Assembly: GCF_009914755.1 (NCBI RefSeq)
Contig: NC_060930.1
Strand: one strand, 5' to 3'
Length of the DNA: 64,000 nucleotides
Source of the DNA: the human T2T-CHM13v2.0 reference genome, Homo sapiens
The position numbers were made by a program, and so were the translations under genes. Below the pieces are notes generated by a model that was given only the letters and a program-made list of their open reading frames with translations, made no database searches and was not told the DNA's origin. Positions 4,136 through 26,526 of this stretch are shown in pieces (the stretch's first letter is position 1; the number at the start of each line of letters is the position of its first letter).

Positions 4136-6789
4136 AATGTAAATTGCCTTTTAGCATATTCCTACAAAATTTCCCTAGATTGTATCAGAATAATAATGCC
4201 TGTTAATATACTACTTCCAGATACCCCAATGACAGGACATACACTCTCTTCCTGCTAAAAGTTACTTTTTCAAGTCCACATTTTTGGGGACACTCAATGA
4301 GTTCTTCCCTAACCCTGAGAATCTGTGGTTCTAAAAGCGTGGATGGCCCAGTAGGGGTAAAATCCTAGCTTTGTTTTACAGTTCTTGCCGTCATGAGGCG
4401 AGTTGCTTCTCTTTGAGGGTACCAGAGGGCTCCATCCAGTCAGGCACTGTTTCCCAAGCATGTGTTTCATGTGCTGGGGCAGGCTCACCACTGGATCCCA
4501 TCCATGTCTTGGCAGCCAGTGGGCCCAGTGGAATACTCGTGATTGGGAACACGGTGATACTGCATTGACTTGGATTTCCACTCTCCTTTCTCACAGCTGC
4601 ATACAGAATTGTGGGTGTAGCTTACTTCTGGGCCTGGAGAACTGCTCTTCTGGCCCTGCCCTCCCTTTTCTCTGGAGAAGGGGAGCTCCCGTGTCTTGGT
4701 GGTTACCACAGCATTGACCCTGCTCTGGCCACACATGTGTGCATTCATCTTCCAACTCTGTGCTGCCTTTCCCCCCACAGAGACAGCCTCTGGCCCTTGG
4801 TATGGTTTGTGACAGCACAGGCATTACTATGGTAACAGACGTGTTATAAATACAGGATAATAGCTTTGCTTTTGCTTTCCCCCTCCCCCGCCCCCATGCA
4901 GTGAAGGGAATCACCATGATCCTTAAATAATAATCACAGACTTTTTTGCAGACTCTAGGAAATGAACAGAATAAGGCTTTGCCATATAGGCAAGCCATGA
5001 AGAAAACTTATAAGAATATTAGAAAATAATAAAAGTATTGACCAACACTTTCTTTTTGTGCAAACATGTCTTTATTCTTTCAGTTTGAACAAATGTAAAA
5101 ACCTCCTTCTTTGCTAATTTAAAAAATCACATCATGAACATAATCTGAAGTGGCAAAAAATATGTCAGCAAGAATTTTGAAAGATAGGTTAATTAAACGG
5201 TAACTTTGCTGTAATTCATCTCATGTTAGAGATTTTAGCATGGGTTCAACCCTTTGAGACTTCATTCGAAGATGATCATGCCTTTAAAGGGCTTGGGCAT
5301 GGATTGTAAGAACTGTGCTGTAGTGAGTCTTCATTAAGATATTTGGCCTTCTCTGGTTTTAATTGAGCTTTAAATTTGGTTCCCTCCAAGTTTGATGATT
5401 GAGGTAAAGCACTCAGAAGGGATTTTGAATACATATCTTTGACAAAGGCCTTATAATGGTCTTCACTGCTTTACAAGTGTAATAGCCCTTGGCTGCATTG
5501 ACTGGCCATCAATTTTCTGCAGAGGTAGGGCAGGTTTGGGTCTCCCCACCTTGTCAACTTCTGGTCAAAGTAGCCAGGGTAGACCCTGGCCCAGTTGAGA
5601 CTCAGACCAGGACTTTTTCCCCTCTAGTTTTGGGTTTGCTCCATGACAACATTTTGCTCCCAAAATTTTTTTTTTAAATTAATAAAACTATTAGTGTGAT
5701 TGTTTTTGTTCACAAGGAAAAGTGAAATGAAGCAACTTTTTCTAGTGAGAGCTTTCCTGCTGCAGAAAACCGTGTGTACCTAGAAAACCACATTTTAGAT
5801 CTGAGTCTTTTGACAGGTTTTCCCAGAGGCTTACAACTTGCCTATTCCAAGTCCAGAATCCCTGTAAATCTCTGAATACTTTAAAATGAAATGAAATGTG
5901 AAAAAAAGAGGGAATATACTTCTCTTTATGCATTTATGTGGCAGTCTTGAATAAAGTGTCTTTTACCTCAAATGATAAGTGCCCTTATTCTCCTTTCTTA
6001 CCATGTTTGCACATGTGAAGTAAAAGGAAGAGCCTGTCCATACGGCACAGACAGGTTTGTGTGGAGCAACATAAGATCGATCCCCTAAAACCAGCTTGAT
6101 TTCCTGTGTGCAGAAATGTCTTATCTTTCTTTGAAAACAATGACCATTTCCTGTCCTCCAGGATGGTTTGCTTTTCAGTTAGTTTTCCAAATTTGAGTTC
6201 CATTATAGTCAGGGAAATATGATATATATTTTCAGGCAAATCTTGAAATTCCTAAGGGGTTATAAGAACTGGACTCTAAGGAACCATTAGCTTAACGGAG
6301 AATATGGAAACAGTCACGTGATCTGCTAACCTCTATGTATATAGCTGAGTAACCCACAGTTAATAAGCATGTTACTTTTTGGCTCTTATAATTCTGACAT
6401 GGAGTTGTACTTGCAGGGAAATGGGAATGAGAATGTGGTTTGCATTATGGTCATTATTTATTTTATCTGTTATTCAATATTCTTGGGGCTTGCATATGAT
6501 GATGTGTTCCAAATAGCCATTGAGAAAACAGGATTTAATCAAAATTGCTTTGGACTTTATTTATTTGTCCAACTTTTAAAATATGATTATTAAATAAAAT
6601 TACCTAGAGTTAATGGGATTTGGATGACTTACTATTTATGTACCAGATGCAATTCTCAAAAAAAAAAAAAAAGAAAGAAAAAGAGGTTCACTGAACCCTC
6701 AGTTTTCCCAATCACTTAGGATAAGGACAGGAGGAATTAACGATGAATGGCAGAAATGTGAGTACTTAATAATGTAATGATATAATCTC

Positions 6790-10161: not shown

Positions 10162-10541
10162 TATTAGTCAGCTCAGGCTGACATAAAATACCATAGACTG
10201 GGTAGCTTAAACAACCAAAATTTATTTTCTCACAGTTCTGAAGACTGGAAATCAAGATCAGAGTGCCAGCAGGGTCAATGTCTGGTGAAGTCTCTCTCCT
10301 TGGAGTGTAGATCACTGCCTTTTTACTATGTCCTCATGTGGTGAAGGGAGAGAGAGAGAGAGCAGGCTCTCTGCTGTCTCTTCTCATAAGGGCACTAATC
10401 CCACTGGACAAAGGCCCCATCCTCATGATCTCATTTAACACTAATTATCTTCCAAAGGCCTCATCTCCAATTGCCATAATATTGGGGGTTAGAGCTTCAA
10501 CATATGAATTTGGGGGACACACAAACATTCAGTCTATAACA
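10162..10541 (-). mobile_element. MLT1A-type MaLR solo LTR
   Basis: Runs from tattagtcagctcaggctgacataaaataccatagactgggtagcttaaacaac to gggggacacacaaacattcagtctataaca. Confidence 0.85.
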
Positions 10542-10835
10542 ACAAAGATGACACGGTAGAGCAGTGGAGAAAGGATGGTCTTTTCAATAAATATGTTTAT
10601 GGAAAAAATGTATGTTGATTCTCTACTTCACATCATTCATAACAAATTGTAGATGGATTGTTGATCTAAATGTGATAGGTAAAACAATAGAGCTTCTAGA
10701 GAATGCCTAGGGGAATTTATGATCTTGAATACACCAATATTTCTTAAACTACATACATAAAGTACTAACCATAATGGAAAAAGTTAATTACATATAATAC
10801 AATTAAGAATGTTTGCTGATTTTAAAAAATCTTTC

Positions 10836-10967
10836 AGGTTGCTTGGTGGATACAATATGTGTTGTTCCAGTGATGGATACACTGAAGGCCTTGAATTCGC
10901 CATAGTGCAATATATCAATATAGTTAAATTATACTCATATCCCATGAATTTATACAAATAAAAAAAG
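10836..10967 (+). mobile_element. Short L1 (L1MA/PB-type) 3'-end fragment with A tail
   Basis: gtgatggatacactgaaggcc...tatcccatgaatttatacaaataaaaaaa, flanked by a 12-bp TSD aaaaaatctttc (10824-10835, 10968-10979). Confidence 0.7.
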
Positions 10968-11435
10968 AAAAAATCTTTCCAAAGAATGAAAAAGCAAATC
11001 ACTGAGTACCAGATGAAGTTTGTAATGCATTTCCCTGTAAAAGACTTATATTGACAATGTATAAAGAATCTCTGTAAATAAAAATAAAACAGCTCAATAG
11101 AAAAATAGGCAAAAAATGTAAACAGGCCCTTCATCAAAGAAAATATCCAAGTTATCAGTAAACATGAAAAGTTTTTCAATCTCATTACTCATTAGGGACA
11201 TCAGATTTAAAATCATAGTGAGAGACCGGTAAACACACATGAGAATGGCTAAAATGAAGAAGATTGACAATACCAAGTTTGAGGAGGATATGGAGCAACT
11301 GGGACTCTCATGCATAGCTGGTGAGAGTGTAAATACATATAACCACTATTGAAAGCTGATTGGCAATATCTATTAATGCTGAACATACACATATGCAATA
11401 ATTTATACAATTAAGTGTTCTTGAAAATGTATAAT

Positions 11436-12373
11436 GCAATAATTCTATCTTAGGTATGTGCTCAACACAAATGTGTATATATGTGAGCCAAAGGCACATA
11501 AAATAATCTTCATAGCAGCATTTATTCATAATAGCTAAAAACTGGGAACAACCCAAATGTTCACCAGCAATCATTAACATACACTTGGGATTCCTTAGAT
11601 GGGCTTAGGTGGTTAAGTGTAGGTCATGAAGTTGACTGTGGAACTGTGTGTATATCATATGTGCACAATTTAGGAAAGGCTGTTTTTTTTTTTTTTTTCT
11701 CAAAAAGATCCTTGTCTCAAAAAATGCTAAGAATTCCTGCCTGCATACGAGACCTAGATTTCCATAGTTTTTAAGAAAATTTTAAACTCCTCCTAATTTA
11801 AGCAACTAAGCCCTAGAATGTAATTTGACCTTTTTAATCCTATATTTAGTCTGTTCATAGCTTTCTCAAATCAAGTAGAATATTTAAGAATCTCATCATT
11901 CCTTATTATTAAGGAATTATTACCAAGTGAAATGCAAATGTATCATAGTGAAGCCTAAAAATTAAGTTATAGGCATAAGGCATAGATATACCCCTCTGTG
12001 GTCTACTTGAGAGCTGCATTTGATATGGTGTAAAGTGGAGAGAAATTAGGAGACACTGGGTGAGTGACAAAAGTAGAATATACAATATCTCTACCTCCCA
12101 GTGGTTCTTATCAGGGTGTGACTTGGCCCCCAGGGGACATTTGGTAATATCGGGAGACATTTTTGATTGTCACAGCTAGGAGAAGGGGTACTAATGGCAT
12201 CTAGTGGGTAGAGGCCAGGTATGGTGCTAAATGTCCTACAATGCACAGGACAGCCCAAACCAATTATCCAGCTGAAAATATTAACAATGCTGTGCTTTAG
12301 AAACCAGGCTCCACAGTGATGACAGGTCTGTGTATGGGACACCTCTTGTGCTCCTCTTCAAGTCCTCTTGGCC
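11436..12373. repeat. Inverted duplication, left (ancestral) arm, 938 bp
   Basis: Manual alignment to the reverse complement of 13805-14668 gives 864 aligned bp, 15 substitutions and one 74-bp indel (11653-11726, present only in this arm). The ORF track shows identical peptides on opposite strands (11909..12160- vs 14018..14269+; 12091..12342- vs 13836..14087+). Confidence 0.97.
12099..12308 (+). mobile_element. MER20 (hAT-Charlie), copy in the left arm
   Basis: cagtggttctt, ccccaggggacatttgg, ggcatctagtgggtagaggccagg and cctacaatgcacaggacagccc match the MER20 consensus. Confidence 0.9.
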
Positions 12374-12863
12374 CCACGTGTTAATCCCATGATTGCTGTA
12401 ACACTTTGACCAGCTTGGGCGTGTGCATTCTGAAAGTTACTTGCCTCGCACCTGTGGCATACGTCTCTCGCTTCCTGCTCTGGGACTTCTCTGACATAGC
12501 AGCATGGGCATCCTATGTGGATCCTTTTGGCATTCACTGAAACATTTGCAAACCAGCAGTGTAGGGGATTAAAGCATACTATAGCAACAGGACAGGAGAG
12601 TTGAATTTTTCCTTCTTTTGTCCCCTGGGTAGATAGTTATGAAATGTTTTAATACACTCCAAAGAATTACCTCTGCAATTGAACACCAGTCTCCCTTAGC
12701 AGTAGCCAACTAAATAGCACATCCTTCTGTTGGCTCTTTCTGCTCCCTAGGTTCATTTCTCTTGTCCCTCACTCCTACTTTCTGGGATCACATGCCCATT
12801 AAAGCACCTACATGCAAGTCTTTGACTCAGATTCTGTTTTCTGGGAAACTCAGGATGAAGTGC
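12317..12863 (+). mobile_element. LTR33-like ERVL solo LTR
   Basis: 5' ggacacctcttgtgctcc and 3' cctcactcctactttctgggatcac...actcagattctgttttctgggaaactcag resemble LTR33/LTR16-family ends. Confidence 0.75.
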
Positions 12864-13229
12864 CATGTGTACAGAAGTCCACAGTGAAAAACCAGAAATT
12901 AATGGAAGGGAATATAAAAAAGTTAGAATTTTATGAACATTTGTCTTTTTTCCCTTCAAAGTCCAGCATGAATATACAATGAAAGAGTAAAAAGGGCACC
13001 AGATTCTCAGTGGCACAATAACGGAGCACTCAGAAAGGGCCATTTCTAAAATTGTCCTGTCAGCCAAAGAATTTTCTAATCCTCCTATGGTAGGGGTAAG
13101 GAAAAACAGTGGTGGCTACACAGAAGGAGGAGAAACAAAGAAACTAAGTCAGGGGTTCGAGTAAAAGAGGAAAGTAAAAAGAATATCCTTTGCCTCAGCT
13201 CCTTTAAATGGATTGTGTTATTGTGAGAG

Positions 13230-13390
13230 CTTCAGAATGCTAGAATTTTACTTAGAGGAAACCTAGAATATCATCTAATTAAATTTTCTCTTTTACAGCA
13301 GAGGAAATGAGGTCTGGAGAGGTTAAATGATCTTCTCAAGGTCACTCAGTTGCCTTAATGGCAGAACCAGGACCAGAACTCACTTCTGAA
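13230..13390 (-). mobile_element. MIR
   Basis: ttttacagcagaggaaatgaggtctggagaggttaaatgatcttctcaaggtcac. Confidence 0.7.
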
Positions 13391-13804
13391 AGGGATGGGG
13401 ACACAATCTGATCATGGATTCTAGATCACATACTTCTGTGATTCCGGAGGCAGCCCAGAACTTCTCTTGACATTTTCTAAACTCTTTTTGGAGTTATGAC
13501 GTAGCTAGGATAATACTTTCAGGATACCTTGTCCCAGGTCAACAAGGAGCTAAGATGCTAACAGGAAATAAGAGGAAATGTCAGCTGTGCCTTTCCTTTC
13601 TTGTTAGAGGGTGGCCGTGTTTCTGGCATTTCTTGTTATTCTAGGGACAGTCCCAGTGCTGACTTCTTAAAGTTCCTGTTAAATGGAGAAGACTTAGTTG
13701 ATTAACTTGACCAAGGAGAGTGGTCATAATGATCCCAGTATGTTCTGGGGCTTTTCACTAGTGTTTCCCTCTAAGGCAACTTTGTTCTCAAAGGCAGTGC
13801 CCTT

Positions 13805-14668
13805 GGCCAAGAGGATTTGAAGAGGAGCACAAGAGGTGTCCCATACACAGACCTGTCATCACTGTGGAGCCTGGTTTCTAAAGCACAGCATTGTTAATAT
13901 TTTCAGCTGGATAATTGGTTTGGGCTGTCCTGTGCATTGTAGGACATTTAGCACCATACCTGGCCTCTACCCACTAGATGCCATTAGTACCCCTTCTCCT
14001 AGCTGTGACAATCAAAAATGTCTCCCGATATTACCAAATGTCCCCTGGGGGCCAAGTCACACCCTGATAAGAACCACTGGGAGGTAGAGATATTGTATAT
14101 TCTACTTTTGTCACTCACCCAGTGTCTCCTAATTTCTCTCCACTTTACACCATATCAAATGCAGCTCTCAAGTAGACCACAGAGGGGTATATCTATGCCT
14201 TATGCCTATAACTTAATTTTTAGGCTTCACTATGATACATTTGCATTTCACTTGGTAATAATTCCTTAATAATAAGGAATGATGAGATTTTTAAATATTC
14301 TACTTAATTTGAGAAAGCTATGAACAGACTAAATATAGAATTAAAAAGGTCAAATTACATTCTAGGGCTTAGTTGCTTAAATTAGGAGGAGTTTAAAATT
14401 TTCTTAGAAACTATGGAAATCCAGGTCTCATATGCAGGCAGGAATTCTTAGTATACACAATTTCACAGTCAACTTCAGGACCTACACTTAACCACCTAAG
14501 CCCATCTAAGGAATCCCAAGTGTATGTTAATGATTGCTGGTGAACATTTGGGTTGTTCCCGATTTTTAGCTATTATGAATAAATGCTGCCATGAAGATTA
14601 TTTTATGTGCCTTTGGCTCACACATATACACATTTGTGTTGAGCACATACCTAAGATAGAATTATTGC
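13805..14668. repeat. Inverted duplication, right (derived) arm, 864 bp
   Basis: Reverse complement of 11436-12373. It truncates L1 and LTR33 sequence at its ends and is flanked by a CCTTGGC direct repeat (13801-13807, 14668-14674). Confidence 0.97.
13870..14079 (-). mobile_element. MER20, duplicated copy in the right arm
   Basis: Exact reverse complement of 12099-12308. Confidence 0.9.
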
Positions 14669-14839
14669 CTTGGCTCCCTCCATTCCCCCACTGGGTATCC
14701 AACACCCAAGGTGCACCTAGTAAGGATGCTTTTCTTCTCCTTGTGCTGAGGTCCCAGGTCAGACATTTTATTCTAGTGAGCAAAACAGATATGCTCCTGT
14801 CTTAACCTGGCTCATAGTCTGGTGGAAGAGACAGACATT

Positions 14840-14842
<3 letters not shown>

Positions 14843-14874
<32 letters not shown>
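14843..14874. repeat. (AC)16 microsatellite
   Basis: Read directly from the sequence. Confidence 0.95.
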
Positions 14875-14879
<5 letters not shown>

Positions 14880-15452
14880 CAATCAAGTCTGAGAATTACC
14901 AAGTCCAGAGTGCTGTCGGATCTGACCAGGTTTGGGGTCAGGGAAGGTCTCCCTAGGATGAGGTTTAAGATAAGATACAAAGGACTGAATTCATCAGTAG
15001 GACTAAACTGGCAAAGGATTTTAGGGTTGTGAGGGAGGAAGCAGCACATTTAAAGGCTGAGTGGAGGGAGGGCCTCAAGGAAGTGAAAGAAGCCAGAATC
15101 CAGAAAGCAGACAGGTGTGAGGCTGGCCTGGTCTTAGGAGCCATGGAGACCATGCCAGGAGTGCCACTTTGTTCTTGAGGGCAGTGGATGCCACTGAAGA
15201 GTTTTGAGCAGGTGAGAGCAGTGGTCATATTGGTGTTTCAGAAGAATTTTCTAGATGCAGAATGGAGAGAAGGAACTACATGACAGTGAGTTAGAAGGCT
15301 ACTTGTAGTTTGGGCAAGAGGTATTGGTGGCTTCACTGGGATTGAGGGTAACAAACTCCATGAAGATAAGGCACCTAGAACAGTGCCTCACATATAAGTA
15401 GACTTGATAAATATTCATCGAATGAATGAATGATTGGGTGTAGTATAAAAAC

Positions 15453-15759
15453 TTTTTTTTTTTTTTTTTTTTTTTGTGGCAAGGTCTCATTTTGTTGCCT
15501 AGGCTGGAGTCGAGTGGTGCCATCACAGCTTACCGCAGCCTTGACCTCCCTGAGCTCAGGTGATCCTCCCACCTCTGCCTCCTCAGTATCTGGGACTACA
15601 GGCAGGCACGATCATGCCCAGCTAATTTTTGTATTTTTTTGTAGAGATGGTGTTTCACCATGTTGCCCAGGCTGGTCTCAAACTCCTGGGCTCAAGCAGT
15701 CCACATGCTTTGGCCCCAGAAAGTGCTGGGATTACAAGCATGAGCCACCACACCCAGCT
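15453..15759 (-). mobile_element. AluJ
   Basis: Poly-T followed by a reverse Alu with J-type ctcctgggctcaagcagtcc. Confidence 0.9.
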
Positions 15760-17749
15760 GTGTAAAAATATTTAGGAGGACCTGGTGATTAATCAGAATG
15801 TGGGAGGTGGGAGGTGAGAGGTGAGAGGGAGAGAAGAGGCAGGAAAGATGCTGGGTTTCTGCCATCAGGTAACTGGGTAGATGATAGGGCCAGGAACTGA
15901 GGTGGGAAACGCAGTGAAGGGGACTGGAAATGGAGAGGGTTGTGTATGCAGCTTTGGACTTGACTTACTAAGATGTCTGGGAGGCAGTTGGACATAGTAG
16001 CTCATGAAAGATAATTGTGTTGATTTGGGCATCGTCGTATTATGGATGATAACTGGAGTCATAAGAATACGTAGTGCAGCTCAAGAGGAATGTCTAGAGA
16101 GAAGAGTGCTCTGAAGGATTTCTTGTTAGTGTTGCCCTCTACTTTTCCCATAGCAGGACTATTTTGGCATGCTGTGTCTCATTACATTCCAGAGTAGGGA
16201 TTGGCATAGGGCCCCTTCAGAGAGTCTCTCAACCAATCTTTGCTCTAAGAAATCTAAATAAATATTTAAAGGTGAGAAGAGTGAAGAGTGAAGTAAATTA
16301 TTTTGTTGAAATGTTCTAGTAGGTTCATCTTGCTTCTTTTAACACATTTAATTGAATGCAGTTCTGCATACCCTTCAACCTACTGAACTTGACTTTCTGG
16401 GTGTGACTACAGTTCAGGGTATTGAGGGAAGAAAAGGAGCTGAGGAGGAGAACAAGCAGTGCTCTCTCTGAGTGCTTGGGCCCTCCCAGGTGTCCCTTTG
16501 ACACCCAGTCTCTAGCCTGTCAATTTGCCTCCCCTAGGAGGTGGCCCCACGTGGCCTGCTGCTTGGCAGGACTGGCTGGAGCAGCGAGGAGGGACTTGGC
16601 TTGCTCTTCTGTCATGATGGGCTGCTTGTGCTCCCCTCCAGTGGAGATGCTTACACCTGCCTACTACAGTCACCAAGAACATCTGGCTCCTATGATCCTT
16701 CATGGTGATGGAGCCCTGGGAGCAGGCCAGGCTTGTCCTTGGCCATTTTCTCCTGCACATTGGCCTTTTACACTAGGGGCAGCCATGGGAAGCTCCTTGA
16801 GGCCTTGTTAGTGTCCATGCGTGTCTTGTTAGTCAGTGCATTTGCAGCCCATCATACAGTGCCTGGCACGAAGTTGAGTAAAGAAATGAATCCTCTGTCT
16901 ACCTCTGGGGAGATTGTCAACCACTGTGGGACCCATTAAGTGTAAATATTGGGACAGTCAGATCTCAGAAGGGGAAATGAGCCCTTTCATTAAAGAGCAG
17001 ATGATGGAAATGCTTTTCTTGTTCTGAGGTCCTGTATAAAGCAGCTTGACCTTTTAGTCTTTATATGCTGCCACTTTTGTATCTCTTTGAAGATGGTGCC
17101 CCTCTAGGCAGGGCAAGGCCTCAGAATTGGTTTTCTATGAGTGGTAGGCTTGCTGGAGCACACTTTTTGATCTGACTCCCTTGTCGCTTATCACGTTCAT
17201 TTGTGGACTAGATGCTGAGTAGACTTCAGCTATCTAGGAGAGAGAAGTCTAGCAGACAGCAAATCCATGATTGCAGCATCATTGTCCCAGGACATCTTAG
17301 ATTGCTCAGAGGTTCAGATTGAGGGCCCAGGGATGGGGATACGATTTTAATTGAGCATCTTGTCTATGGCAGCCAGCCAGTGAACATGAGCTATTTGGTC
17401 TGTATTACTCTCTCTTTGCCTTATTGTTGATTTCTCCCATTTTCTCTGTAGGGCTCTATAGGAAAAGGATTGCCTTCTCTGTATTTGATGCAAGTAACAG
17501 ACACCATGGGACTTTGTGGACCATGGGTGTCTTTAGTCAATCTGAACATGCATACTGAGGACTAGTAGGTGTTGGTCAATGTGCCCAGCACTGGCCACAT
17601 GGCTGCAGACCTTGTCTTTCTGCCCAGTGCAGGCAAAGGAGGCTCCTGGCAATTGAGGATATAATTGTGGGCAAAAGAGAAGAAACCTTCCTGATAATTA
17701 ATGACCCACATGGAAATGCGCATGCCTCAGTGCTGATGTAGGGCAGTGG

Positions 17750-18040
17750 AGCAGCACGTTCCAGGAGGCTTCCTCAGAAGTCCAGTCTTGGGAATTCTCT
17801 GTGAAAAGACATGTCCGCTGTTAAATCTGTGAAATATGGCACACTCTCTCTCCTTTTCAAAGATTCTTAATTGTACATTGGTGGAAACAAAATGTCCTGC
17901 TGTAAAAAGCCTGTTGTTTAACTTTGTTTAGCCTGCTATTTTCCATTCATATTTAATCATGGAAGTCTTTTTTAAAAATCACATCCATGTAAGTACCCTA
18001 TGGGCTTAGTGTTCTGTGGAACGTGCTTTTGGAAGTGTTG
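17750..18040. mobile_element. Degenerate hAT-Charlie-type DNA transposon
   Basis: End tagtgttctgtggaacgtgcttttggaagtgttg resembles Charlie terminal repeats; family not resolved. Confidence 0.4.
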
Positions 18041-18789
18041 CATACAAGACTGTGGATTTTCCTTAGTCTGAAGCTCTACCTTTTTCCTTTCCTATTCCAG
18101 TTTCTTAGGGTGATTACATAGGAAAGACAGACTCCACAGTGAACACTGAGAAGCAGAGGCGAGGTTGTCAAAGAAACTTACAAGAAGAAACTCCTTCACT
18201 GGCAAGTCAGTGAAATTATGGGGAAATACTCACATTAATGTCAGGGAGCTGGAGGCACATGTACTTAGTAGTGTCATGTTAAAGAATCCAAGCTCAGCAT
18301 GGTATTCAAGACAGAATTACAATTTTGTGACTTTATGAGTCTCTCCTTTTGCTGTCCTTCTTCATTGGAGTACGGGAGAATAAATGAGGAAGGGACATTG
18401 ACTGTAAAGCAACTTCATTTTGTTTGAATTTGACTCTGGAGTCACCTTCCCCAAGAATGCTGTGGACTTTTCCCTGTCTGCTTTGACTAGAAACACGGGA
18501 AGATGAATACTATGAAATTTCAGTGATTTCTGGATTCGCAACATTTCTACCTTTTGATAATTGATTTCATCTCATTCTTAAATCTGTCCTCTTCATTTCC
18601 ACTGTCACCCTGTAGGTTCAGGACTTCATCCCTTTTCCTCTGCAGCCATTTATTCATCTGTCCATTTATTCCTTCATGTAGCATGAGCACTGTTCTGTGC
18701 AAGGCACTGAACACACAAGAGAGAATGAGACATGGACCCTGCTCTCACTTTGCTTACTGAGGCTTCTAGATGTGGAACTGGATTTCTAG

Positions 18790-19166
<377 letters not shown>

Positions 19167-21729
19167 CTGTCATGTTTTATTGAGAAACATTTGGGAGCTT
19201 CTTATTACCTGTGGAATAGAGACGAGCTGATTCCCTCCCCCTATGCCAAAATGACATCCATGAGACTCCTTGTTCAGGCCCTATCAGCTCCTGTCTAATC
19301 TACTTTTCCCTTCACACAAGCTTGGTCAACTGGATGACTGCAGGATTCTTGCCCATTTCAAGCCTGTCTTCCACTCTCTGGCTCCTGCAGTTCCACTGTC
19401 CTTTCTCTCCTCTTTAACTTCCCCGCCTTCCAAATCCTTCAAGACCCAACTCAAATGCCGTGCTCTCTGGAATGGCTCTCACAACTGTCTGAACCTCTCT
19501 CTTACTGCATTCTGCCTGTCATAAAATGAGCCACACACCTCAGGTCCTATCCAGCTCACATGTAAACATGTAGTTCTTTCTGGAGTCACATTCTTTATAT
19601 CTGTATCTATGTCTATGTCTGTCTTCATAATATGAATGTAAATAATTTAAAATTGGGTAGAATGTTCCGTTAGAAAATTGAAAATTAATTTTAAAGTCTG
19701 TCATTTTTCTGTAATTTTGTATAATATAGGGTCATTCCTTTTACTTATTGGAACCAATTTTTAATTTATGTATAGAATATTTAGATTTTATTTTGGGGTT
19801 AAGTACTACTCTGTTTAGAGAGGAGTGGACTATTTAAATTCTTGAAATAACTTCAAATCTATTTATACAAAAGAAAATTAGGGATAATTTTAGGTACTAC
19901 AAAGACTCATGTAGTATTATGGACCTTTGTCATTTAATTGCATTATCCTTTTAATGAGAGCTAAGTTCAATAAAATTTTATTTTTTCAGACACCACTCTT
20001 TGGGAATTCTTGATAGTTCAGTTACCAAAGTGGCAGACATTTTCAGTTGTTGCTCTGATACTTTTTAAATGAGCAAACTTCTCAGGCACTTAGGAAGATC
20101 CACCCATGTGTGGATAGTTAATGTAATAATTACAAAGAATTCCCATCTATTAATTACAGAATATCTGGCAGTGCAGTGATATATTTGGCAACATCTTGTC
20201 AACTATTAATTCAAGTTAAGTACTTTTTTAAAAGAATAGCTGTAAGTGAGGCTTTTATTAATTCTAATGGCTTTACTCTTAAATAATCTAAGTTAGTGAA
20301 ATTTAACCAGTTACTGAGTTGTTCTTTGTATTCAAGGATAGTGGTTTTACAGATGTCATCCACAGGAGGGGATGTGATTGGAGAGACTGGTGCCTGGTCA
20401 CTGGGCCTCTCCAGATTGCATACAGCTGACACCTACCCTTTTCTTGTGGTTCTAATTGCCACTCGTTCTAAGGAAGGCTCATTTACATATAGAATGTGCA
20501 TATTTAATCGTATTTGATCCTCACCGAAGCCATAGTTAGGGTGGGCATGACCAGTCCTTGATCGACTTACTCTTGTCACACACAACTAGAAGGGGCAATA
20601 TTAGTACTTTCACCAAGGTCCTCTGTCTCCATCTCTGTGCTTCACCACACTGTCTTTCAAATAGTAGCAACTTAGATTTGCAAAGCAATGTACATCTACT
20701 ACCTCATTTGCTTATAAAAAGTCACCCCCTTGAGATTGTCCTAAGTGGATCTGCCTGTTGCTTTTCTTTTCTGGCAATCCTTAGTTATATGCCATTGTCT
20801 GCTGTGTTTCATATTCATACTTAAAAGGCACTCTGAACATTTGACATGTCCTACAGTGTCATCACCCTGTCCACACTGCCTTCCTTTGGCTGCCCTCAGG
20901 TTGCCCTAGCTCTTTCCAAGGCTAGAGATTAGCTAAGTAATATGTCCCAACTCTCCCATCTTTGCCTCTCTACCTTTCTCATTGGAACCCTATCCTCAGC
21001 CCTTCTTCCCATTCCTTGTAAAAACATATTCTTCAGAAAGAATCATTCATTTCAAAGCATAAATCATTACTTACAAGTATATATTGAGCCTCCTTGCTTT
21101 CAGGGAATTGGTGTTTTAATGGTTCATAAGAAACATTTAGCCAAAGAAATGACCTTCTAGTGGTAGAATTTAATCTTAGTGAGCAGCTGAAGGATAATTT
21201 TTTGAAGCTAGGATATTCTTATTGGCACCCTTGAAATTACAGAGGTAGGGGGGTCTCCCATTTCAACCACATGGAAAGCCAGTCTTATCCATGTTCTGCT
21301 GTGAGCCCTGCTCCTTAGAAAAGAGAAGGCTGGCAAGAGTATTGCTTGCCTGTGGGTAGAATAACTGCTTGAGATCCACATATTATTGGGCCTGTCTTAT
21401 CATTTAATGTTTAAGTAGCACTTGCTGGTGCGAGTTATACAGAATGTTTGCAGCAAATCCATGTCTCATAGTCATAAAGAAGTAAAGGCTTGCACCGTGG
21501 GCCTTTAACTTGTTTTTTGAAAATCAATCAACAAATATTGATTAACACTTCAGCTGTCTCCTCAAAGACATTTTGACCTTTTTGATTTCATTTTCTTTGT
21601 CTATTGTTGTGTCACTGAGCAATGTGCTGTGTAAGTTGCAAAATGTGTGACAGCTTTTAGTCCTTTTTGTGGAGAGAGGTCTGTGAGGATGGTTTATAAT
21701 CTTACTGCTTAGAAAAGCTGTGGTCTCTA

Positions 21730-21970
21730 AGGTGTAGTGGTCAAGAGCTTGGGCTCTGGAATCAGATGGCCTGGTCCTCAGTAAGGCTCTGATATGTACT
21801 TATTGTGTGATTAGGAGCAAATTACTTAACATATAAACTCACTTTCCCCATTTGCACAATGGAGATTAATGTTAGTAACTGCCTGGTTGGTGGTGGTTGT
21901 GAAAAAGATTAAATAACATTGAAATGAGCCGTGCATTGTGCGGGCACCTGCGAAGTACTGCTATCATTAT
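21730..21970 (+). mobile_element. MIR
   Basis: gtgtagtggtcaagagcttgggctctggaatcaga and ctcactttccccatttgcacaatggagat. Confidence 0.75.
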
Positions 21971-23194
21971 GTTCTTTGTGGTTTAGTGGTCCCAGTTTTC
22001 TCTGGGTCTCCTTGTATGTTCACTCCTAGAACACAGGGAATTGTACAGAAACTCCTGGTGGACTCTGTAGAAACTTTAAGTTAGATTGCTTTAAAGTGTT
22101 TGGAATTGAATTATTTCAAAAAGGAATTTCTTTTTTGCAGAAGTTATAAAGAAAGCAAACTTCAGTTTCTTGCCTGCTTTCCAGGCCTTGACTTTATTCT
22201 GTTTTTAAATATAGCTGCTGCAACAAGTAGATTGACACAGTGCAGCCCGGCCATGGGCCATTTCATGTCATTTCATGGCATGGGGAACACACAGGAGTCT
22301 CCTCAGACTGCCTTGTAACTTGTCTCAAATATAATCCAGGTCTTTCATTGATTATCTGGATGTGTGCATTCTAGGAACTGTTGGAGGAGATAGATGTCCC
22401 AGCAAATACTTTCGGAATTTCCCCTCAGTCTTGGACTCCCATGAAAGTTACAAAGGGGTGGTAAATCTACAGTTTAATTGCCTGGAGTCCATTAATGCCC
22501 TACTGATTTTCTTTGGGCACTGGTCAGGTAAGTTAGTATACATGTTTATAGCCAATTTAAATGCCCCAAGAAGATCACTGACCAATGGCCATCCTTATTT
22601 TTAAAAGTCACCAGATAAGGCAATTTCTCAAACAACTTCAGCAGGGCATTCCAGAAATGCTTGATCTCATACTTCTCTGCACTATAATAAATACAATTTT
22701 GATTTCATCTTGGAGTAATCTGAACTTCTGGGATGTAAAGTAGAAAAATGTTCTATAGCTCTTGGAACATTAGATTGGAAAGAAAATGCCTTAAACATTC
22801 TGCTTAATTAAATTCGGTACAAATTTTTCATGATTAATTGAAATATGCTTATTTTGACTGATACATATTTATATGATATTATCATATGAAAATTATGTTA
22901 TACAAACCGTTCTCTTTGGGAATGTGATTTAATGCTGTAAACATTTTACATTTGTTGTATTGTTTATTATAAAAATGCACAGGCTGATGGCTGTAAGGTA
23001 ATGTCATGTAAAAATCTGTTATGTGAATCTTCTCTGAGGTAATCTCAAGTCTCTAATGGCACAGACCGTTAGCCAAAATGTAAGACAGGTAATTAGGTTT
23101 TCCCTAGCTTGAAGAAATATTTTTTTAAGTAGAAAAAAAAATTTAAAGCAGATCAAGTTAGAAAAGTTAAAGTGCTGAAACCTTCTATTTTGCC

Positions 23195-23256
23195 ATTGTA
23201 AAGCATGCATTTCATTTCCATGTTTATTGTAAAGCATGCATTTCATTTCCGTGTTT
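23195..23256. repeat. 31-bp tandem duplication
   Basis: attgtaaagcatgcatttcatttcc(a/g)tgttt occurs twice with one mismatch. Confidence 0.92.
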
Positions 23257-26374: not shown

Positions 26375-26526
26375 AAGATGATGTGTCAAATGTACAAATA
26401 ATGTGTGCCTGGTGCCAGAAAGTGGGAATCAAGCGCTATTCCCTGAGTATGGGAAGTGAGGTGAAAAGCTTCTGCAGCGAGAAGTGCTTTGCGGCCTGCC
26501 GACGAGCCTACTTCAAGAGAAATAAG
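26375..26526 (+). CDS. SOBP: SOBP internal coding exon (152 bp; exon 4 by recollection) encoding an FCS-type zinc finger: (E)[50 protein letters not shown]
   Basis: Acceptor tttttcttatacttttattatag ends at 26374 and donor AAG|gtaaga starts at 26527. The exon is 2 nt plus 50 open codons (phase 1 in, phase 0 out). It has CxxC...FCSxxC zinc-finger spacing and local CpG enrichment, and I recognise the peptide as SOBP. No other SOBP exon was seen in the window. Confidence 0.95.

What the first reader, a model, noticed from the sequence alone, without database searches (positions are those of the whole stretch)
13817..14289. Perfect 473-bp core versus 3.7%-diverged outer arm: signature of arm-to-arm homogenisation
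Seen: 13817-14289 matches 11889-12361 with no mismatches, whereas the outer 379 bp (14290-14668) carry 14 substitutions plus the 74-bp indel. At the outer rate about 17 differences would be expected in the core; the chance of none is roughly e^-18. Inference: the duplication is fairly old (divergence of the order seen between great apes), but the spacer-proximal half has been reset by gene conversion or crossover, as in palindrome arms. The homogenised tract contains the whole MER20.
Basis: partly seen in the sequence, partly recalled or inferred. Interest (0 to 1): 0.75.

Follow-up and report, generated by a model that had tools for sequence, protein, structure and literature searches.

The report
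Half-homogenised inverted repeat in SOBP intron
About 900 bases of DNA in the first intron of the human SOBP gene have a back-to-front copy 1.4 kb away, and the inner halves of the two copies are identical, likely because one copy later overwrote the other by gene conversion, an ordinary and well-described process.

Summary
Arms 11436-12373 and 13805-14668 share a perfect 473-bp core. The outer 379 bp carry 14 substitutions and a 74-bp indel, and one more mismatch sits at the inner tip. It is not an assembly collapse: a published table gives the same block, apparently in hg19, at 99.07% identity.

Old repeats cross both left junctions and a 7-bp direct repeat flanks the right copy. So the left arm is the parent, the right is an inserted inverted duplicate, and the spacer is still in its birth orientation. 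One crossover therefore cannot explain the core. Best reading (0.70): an ape-age inverted duplication, with later non-crossover gene conversion of the inner half. Main rival (0.17): a younger copy with clustered mutations.

The locus is already listed in print as a potential long dsRNA. It was not found in three inversion lists where a control inversion was found. No ape orthologs could be fetched. It is a new example of a known process.

The parts
11436..12373 (+). Left arm, the parent copy (938 bp)
   Evidence: older repeats cross both of its ends
13805..14668 (-). Right arm, the inserted inverted copy (864 bp)
   Evidence: flanked by a 7-bp direct repeat
11889..12361 (+). Perfect core, left copy (473 bp)
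13817..14289 (-). Perfect core, right copy (473 bp)
14290..14668 (-). Diverged outer part of the right arm: 14 substitutions in 379 columns
11650..11723 (+). 74 bp present only in the left arm (includes a T16 run); 7 of the 14 outer substitutions lie within 50 bp of it
12374..13804 (.). Spacer, 1431 bp, in birth orientation; same length in the published row
12362..12362 (.). Single inner-tip mismatch (pairs with 13816)
13801..13807 (+). First copy of the 7-bp direct repeat CCTTGGC (target-site-duplication-like); its last 3 bases are shared with the arm end (microhomology), giving the 10-bp palindrome 13802-13811
   Evidence: chance of such a flanking repeat about 0.3%
14668..14674 (+). Second copy of the 7-bp direct repeat
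12096..12322 (.). Multi-copy element wholly inside the core (MER20, name recalled); mirror copy at about 13856-14082
11205..11590 (+). Old interspersed repeat (L1 3' part, name recalled) that crosses the left outer junction
   Evidence: 21 of 23 related loci align across the junction
12312..12868 (+). Old interspersed repeat (solo-LTR-like, name recalled) that crosses the left inner junction
   Evidence: 3 of 6 related loci align across 12373; none continues across the right inner junction

Best explanation
The two arms are a short inverted duplication whose left copy is the parent, and the identical inner 473 bp were likely reset by later non-allelic gene conversion between the arms.

Step 1 (junctions shown, mechanism inferred): a break at about 13807 was probably repaired by template switching. 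The end annealed through 3-4 bases of microhomology to the opposite strand at 12373, copied about 0.9 kb backwards, and rejoined the target, leaving a 7-bp duplication.

Step 2 (inferred): the copies diverged neutrally to about 3-4%, probably since early great-ape or ape times, and a 74-bp indel arose.

Step 3 (inferred): one or a few non-crossover conversion tracts overwrote the inner half within roughly the last 3 million years (95% upper bound 0.63% divergence). The indel and the accumulated mismatches probably kept the outer part out of the exchange.

The spacer was not left inverted in CHM13 (shown). No selected function is needed.
For: Mismatches are strongly uneven: 14 against 1 by halves, P = 0.001; longest-run P 1e-4 to 1e-3. 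The Bayes factor for one tract is 16-19 with all substitutions, 7-13 with the dinucleotide counted once, and about 3 under conservative coding. The prior for a tract is not small: 0.5-0.9 tracts are expected over 12-20 My at the mean rate and 250-bp tract length of bioRxiv 10.1101/135152. The outer differences are 14 transitions in 15, spread over both strands and all four transition types, as old point mutation would give. Parentage and orientation. An independent assembly shows the same block at 641/647, with all four ends at one constant offset. PMC4617611 (passages) describes duplicates under 1 kb inserted within 5 kb in inverse orientation as the commonest inversion-type variant. PMC3924837 (passages) states that large indels and accumulated substitutions stop conversion. 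PMC3723533 (passages) finds conversion far commoner than crossover in a palindrome.
Against: No ortholog or population haplotype was seen, so no change shared by both arms (the defining sign) was shown. Seven of the 14 outer substitutions lie within 50 bp of the indel (P = 0.05); dropping that zone cuts the Bayes factor to 1.4. The tract edge (11888) is about 165 bp from the indel, not at it. All 4 polarisable L1-part differences (3 events) are derived on the right copy. The single-CpG site also suggests the right copy, while only one weak site points left (2 of 3 loci). That mildly fits errors made when the copy was born. The one exact PRDM9-type motif nearby sits at the outer end, not by the core.
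Confidence: 0.7

Rival explanations
1. The duplication is younger (about 1-1.7% overall, near the human-chimpanzee-gorilla splits) and was never converted. The outer excess comes from error-prone copying at birth or from the indel event, plus chance.
For: Whole-arm divergence is only 1.7% (1.3% under conservative coding). Substitutions cluster near the indel. The polarised differences fall mostly on the derived copy. About 200 such repeats exist in RefSeq transcripts (PMC7006430), so a 1e-2 gap would occur somewhere.
Against: It needs 7 substitutions across 100 bp to be one event. The spectrum is not strand-coordinated. A further 7 outer differences lie away from the indel, with none in 473 bp. 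The longest-run P stays below 1% under every coding.
Confidence: 0.17
2. Homogenisation came through crossovers: the spacer flipped and flipped back at different points in the arms, and allelic recombination between such haplotypes, or crossover-associated tracts, made the middle identical. The locus would then be a recurrent micro-inversion.
For: Same geometry as HsInv0061 on the same chromosome (659-bp arms, 1 mismatch, 1668-bp spacer). Most inversions between inverted repeats are recurrent (PMC3961182 and PMC6748972, passages).
Against: CHM13 has the birth orientation, so an even number of events is needed. The locus was not found in three lists where the HsInv0061 control was found. HsInv0061 itself is reported as single-origin.
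Confidence: 0.09
3. Selection keeps the cores identical, for RNA pairing in SOBP transcripts or for a regulatory role of the enclosed element.
For: The arms lie in SOBP intron 1 and, by the hub's table, in one long exon of another transcript. The core can pair fully. The published row shows non-zero values that I read as editing.
Against: Non-coding selection does not hold 473 bases at 100%. A-to-I editing and G:U pairs tolerate mismatch. Expression appears very low (0.004, read as FPKM). Long perfect duplexes are reported to be selected against. No Rfam match.
Confidence: 0.02
4. The core identity is an assembly consensus collapse in CHM13.
For: None found.
Against: PMC7006430 Table S8 gives the same 647-bp block at 99.07% with the same 1431-bp spacer in an older assembly (hg19, inferred from the methods passage and the coordinates). 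A truly diverged core would give about 96.2%. The whole structure is 3.2 kb.
Confidence: 0.01

Closest known systems
Short inverted duplications of the 1000 Genomes 'Inverted Dup' class (PMC4617611, passages)
   Same: A copy under 1 kb inserted within 5 kb of its source in inverse orientation, with no sign of retrotransposition (no poly-A at either end, by the sequence).
   Different: Those are segregating and young. This one is present in two reference assemblies, has diverged 3-4% in its outer part, and shows later homogenisation.
HsInv0061 and other small inversions between inverted repeats (PMC6748972, PMC3961182, PMC13629690; passages and supplement rows)
   Same: Nearly the same geometry, about 0.8 Mb away on chr6: arms 0.65 kb, spacer 1.7 kb, near-perfect identity.
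   Different: HsInv0061 arms are uniformly identical (1 mismatch in 659) and its spacer is polymorphic. Here identity is two-tiered and no inverted allele was found in print.
Arm-to-arm gene conversion in X and Y palindromes (PMC3723533, PMC8981503; passages)
   Same: Inverted arms kept alike by conversion, with conversion outnumbering inversion.
   Different: Arms are far shorter (0.9 kb against over 10 kb), autosomal and without genes; identity is above 99% only over the inner 650 bp; GC bias is not testable here.
Long near-perfect intronic inverted repeats able to form dsRNA (PMC7006430, passages and one row of Table S8)
   Same: This very locus is one of the 197 human entries (647 bp, 99.07%).
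   Different: That paper treats it only as a dsRNA candidate. I saw no account of its origin or of the two-tier identity, but I saw only passages and that row.

Membership tests
Short inverted duplication (inv-dup) | Copy under 1 kb, inverted, within 5 kb of the source | tested here: met
   864-938 bp arms, 1431-bp spacer
Short inverted duplication (inv-dup) | One copy in native context, the other inserted with junction scars | tested here: met
   Repeats cross both left junctions (21 of 23 and 3 of 6 loci); 7-bp direct repeat and microhomology at the right copy
Short inverted duplication (inv-dup) | An empty-site allele or ortholog exists | not testable with these tools
   No other primate or human genome is held (no relatives)
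Non-allelic gene conversion tract | Run of identity longer than uniform divergence allows, with diverged flanks | tested here: met
   P 1e-4 to 1e-3, at worst 9e-3; Bayes factor 3-19, at worst 1.4
Non-allelic gene conversion tract | Derived changes shared by both copies; trees cluster by species | not testable with these tools
   Needs ape orthologs
Non-allelic gene conversion tract | Tract length of a few hundred bases, rarely over 1 kb | tested here: met
   At most 473 bp; ranges
Non-allelic gene conversion tract | Flanks not exchanged (non-crossover) | tested here: met
   Spacer in birth orientation; an even number of crossovers is not excluded
Polymorphic inversion between inverted repeats | Inverted repeats over 90% identical, of about 650 bp or more | tested here: met
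   650 bp at 98.8%; the smallest such repeat in PMC6748972 is 654 bp
Polymorphic inversion between inverted repeats | Both orientations observed | tested here: inconclusive
   Not found in three lists with a working control; three other supplements were uninformative; no haplotypes seen
Sex-chromosome-type palindrome | Arms over about 10 kb at over 99% identity | tested here: not met
   Arms 0.9 kb, 98.3% overall; size definition from the abstract listing. It works like one but is not one.

The most novel reading that the evidence does not exclude
The arms still recombine. The 1.4-kb spacer would be a rare or ape-variable flip-flop inversion that current catalogues miss, and repeated conversion would keep regenerating a perfect duplex of over 470 bp in SOBP RNA against the usual purge of long dsRNA. 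The one-mismatch difference between CHM13 (7 in 647) and the published row (6 in 647) could then mark a tract edge that varies between people.
Probability: 0.1. Interest if true: 0.45.

Novelty: new member of a known kind. Interest (0 to 1): 0.24.

Why it matters
Modestly. It is a compact autosomal case in which the birth scar, the parent copy, the spacer orientation and a probable conversion tract can all be read within 3.3 kb. That suits it for measuring arm-to-arm conversion in sub-kilobase repeats with pangenome and ape assemblies. It also shows how small inverted duplicates can become substrates for micro-inversion and long dsRNA. No effect on SOBP is shown or expected: the nearest coding exon is at 26375.

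Tried and rejected
1. Polarising the 74-bp indel and the sites 11626-11888. Own-genome searches and nhmmer over 211 kb of held sequence found no relatives, so the direction is unknown; deletion from the right copy is only a recalled impression.

2. Strand-coordinated hypermutation or editing as the source of the outer differences: rejected, because all four transition types occur on both strands.

3. Staggered-break inversion as the origin of the arms: rejected, because both left junctions are native and the direct repeat flanks the right copy.

4. Transposition of the enclosed element: rejected, because it is internal to the arm and its other copies are only 75-84% alike.

5. A hotspot motif in the arms or spacer: none at up to 1 mismatch; one exact match lies just outside at 14677 (motif recalled).

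6. Rfam: 0 matches at E up to 1 in 10500-15500.

7. Inversion lists with a working control, all without a hit for this locus: PMC13629690 (612 candidates, hg38 position partly from a recalled offset), PMC10150506 (T2T), PMC1270012 (human-chimpanzee, position from a recalled offset).

8. Uninformative supplements: PMC6044046 (one small file, no control), PMC12350158 (file cut, control not found, 2 of 4 places of one term unseen), PMC12058530 (supplement unreadable).

9. Text searches for this locus listed nothing on it; only the top 5-30 listings were seen.

10. Two papers asked for by PMC id were not held; one was then read as its preprint.

Full report
1. Observation. The window holds one high-identity inverted repeat. 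The left arm is 11436-12373, the right arm 13805-14668, and the spacer 1431 bp. Base-by-base comparison gives 864 aligned columns and 15 substitutions: 11481, 11514, 11542, 11543, 11626, 11641, 11644, 11726, 11748, 11756, 11771, 11839, 11872, 11888 and 12362 in left-arm coordinates. A further 74 bp are present only on the left. The run 11889-12361 against 13817-14289 has no mismatch. The outer 379 columns carry 14 substitutions (3.7%, CI 2.0-6.1%). The first 292 bases of the left arm have no other copy among the 40 of 4768 candidates scored in the own-genome search; the other hits are all the 220-bp element inside the core. Its name, MER20, like the names L1 and LTR below, is recalled and comes from no call.

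2. How unlikely. Placing the mismatches at random, a clean run of 473 or more has P = 1.1e-4. With the dinucleotide counted once it is 2.3e-4; dropping 10 bp each side of the indel gives 1.4e-3; dropping 50 bp each side gives 9e-3. Seven of the 14 outer substitutions are within 50 bp of the indel (P = 0.05). A model with one conversion tract of random place, length and age beats uniform divergence by Bayes factors of 16-19, 7-13, about 3 and 1.4 under those four codings (Monte Carlo, rough). The unevenness is real, but the evidence for conversion is substantial rather than overwhelming.

3. Not an artefact. Table S8 of PMC7006430 lists 197 human inverted repeats over 300 bp and over 96% identical in RefSeq transcripts (passages). 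It holds a chr6 row 107842075-107842722 / 107839997-107840644, 647 bp, 99.07%. All four ends map to my 647-bp megablast block at one constant offset, and the spacer is again 1431 bp. The assembly is hg19, inferred from the methods passage and the coordinates. 99.07% is 6 mismatches in 647; CHM13 has 7; a core diverged at the outer rate would give about 96.2%. So an older assembly agrees, and the two haplotypes differ by a net one mismatch, which is ordinary for 1.3 kb. I could not see which site differs. The column names of that row were not shown. I read them as low expression (0.004) with some editing in the 15-tissue pool and none in muscle; the arithmetic fits 12 added mismatches.

4. Which copy is the parent. 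An old repeat runs through the left outer junction: 21 of 23 related loci align across it. Another runs through the left inner junction: 3 of 6 related loci align from the arm into the spacer on the left, and none continues across the right inner junction. The right copy is flanked by a 7-bp direct repeat at 13801-13807 and 14668-14674 (chance about 0.3%), whose last three bases are shared with the arm end and give the 10-bp palindrome at 13802-13811. Hence the left arm sits in native sequence, the right arm is an insertion, and the spacer is in the orientation it had at birth. This fits the short inverted duplications that made up 54% of 229 inversion sites characterised in PMC4617611 (passages). 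Template switching at microhomology is my inference from the junctions.

5. Age and mutation pattern. Fourteen of 15 differences are transitions, of all four types and on both strands, which argues against one burst of strand-specific damage. The four sites in the L1 part are all ancestral on the left (majority base in 11-17 of 23 loci). That is three events, so not significant. At 12362, two of three loci carry the right-arm base, which is weak evidence of a left-arm change. Outer divergence of 2.8-3.7% (CI 1.3-6.1%) brackets the recalled human-orangutan figure of about 3%. A clean 473 bp bounds core divergence at 0.63% and has P = 0.003 at the recalled human-chimpanzee 1.2% (not corrected for selection).

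6. Mechanism. A single crossover in the arms exchanges halves, erases nothing outside its own tract and inverts the spacer; CHM13 is not inverted. Non-crossover conversion makes a tract identical and leaves the flanks in place. The reported mean rate (2.5e-7 per base per generation, tract 250 bp, CI 63-1000; bioRxiv 10.1101/135152, passages) predicts 0.5-0.9 tracts on these arms in 12-20 My. Closeness raises the rate, and large indels and accumulated substitutions stop it (PMC3924837, passages). With prior odds near or above even and the Bayes factors above, I give conversion 0.70, a young unconverted copy 0.17, repeated flipping 0.09, selection 0.02 and collapse 0.01. The donor arm cannot be told.

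7. Comparison with what is known. HsInv0061, 0.8 Mb away, has 659-bp arms with one mismatch round a 1668-bp spacer, so this geometry can invert. This locus was not found among the 612 candidates of PMC13629690, in the T2T tables of PMC10150506 or in the human-chimpanzee list of PMC1270012. The control was found in each; the hg38 and hg17 positions rest partly on recalled offsets. Supplements of PMC6044046, PMC12350158 and PMC12058530 were uninformative. It works like palindrome-arm conversion (PMC3723533, PMC8981503; passages) but is not a palindrome of that class by size. Text searches listed no paper on this repeat's history; only listings were seen. The core can form a full RNA duplex in SOBP sense transcripts, there is no Rfam match, and the locus is already tabulated as a dsRNA candidate.

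8. Verdict. The feature is real and exactly described. It is probably a converted tract in an ordinary short inverted duplication: a new member of a known kind. The defining test needs ape orthologs and human haplotypes, which these tools do not hold. Interest 0.24.

Noticed in passing
window 11393-11444: An 11-bp direct repeat spaced 41 bp apart interrupts the old L1-like element; many related loci lack about 30 bases here. The duplicated arm ends inside the second copy, so it may be a scar of the same event or a coincidence.
   Followed up: partly
window 14677-14689: Exact match to the recalled 13-mer PRDM9 hotspot motif just outside the right arm's outer end; one of 7 exact matches in the window, none in the arms or spacer.
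   Followed up: partly
window 11638-11671: A small quasi-palindrome at the edge of the 74-bp indel; the right arm's bases there resemble the reverse complement of the left-only segment, so a local template switch may account for the 2-3 neighbouring mismatches.
   Followed up: no
L046:6755-9740 (G000:C6:107896755-107899740): The HsInv0061 repeats: 659-bp arms with a single mismatch 3 bp from the inner end, echoing the inner-tip mismatch here; a palindromic tandem array lies just upstream at about 6156-6617.
   Followed up: partly
window 23195-23256: Tandem duplication of 31 bp with one mismatch.
   Followed up: no
window 11196-22527: The hub's table lists an 11-kb exon of another SOBP transcript that contains both arms; if real, mature RNA would carry the duplex. 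The model may be a prediction.
   Followed up: no
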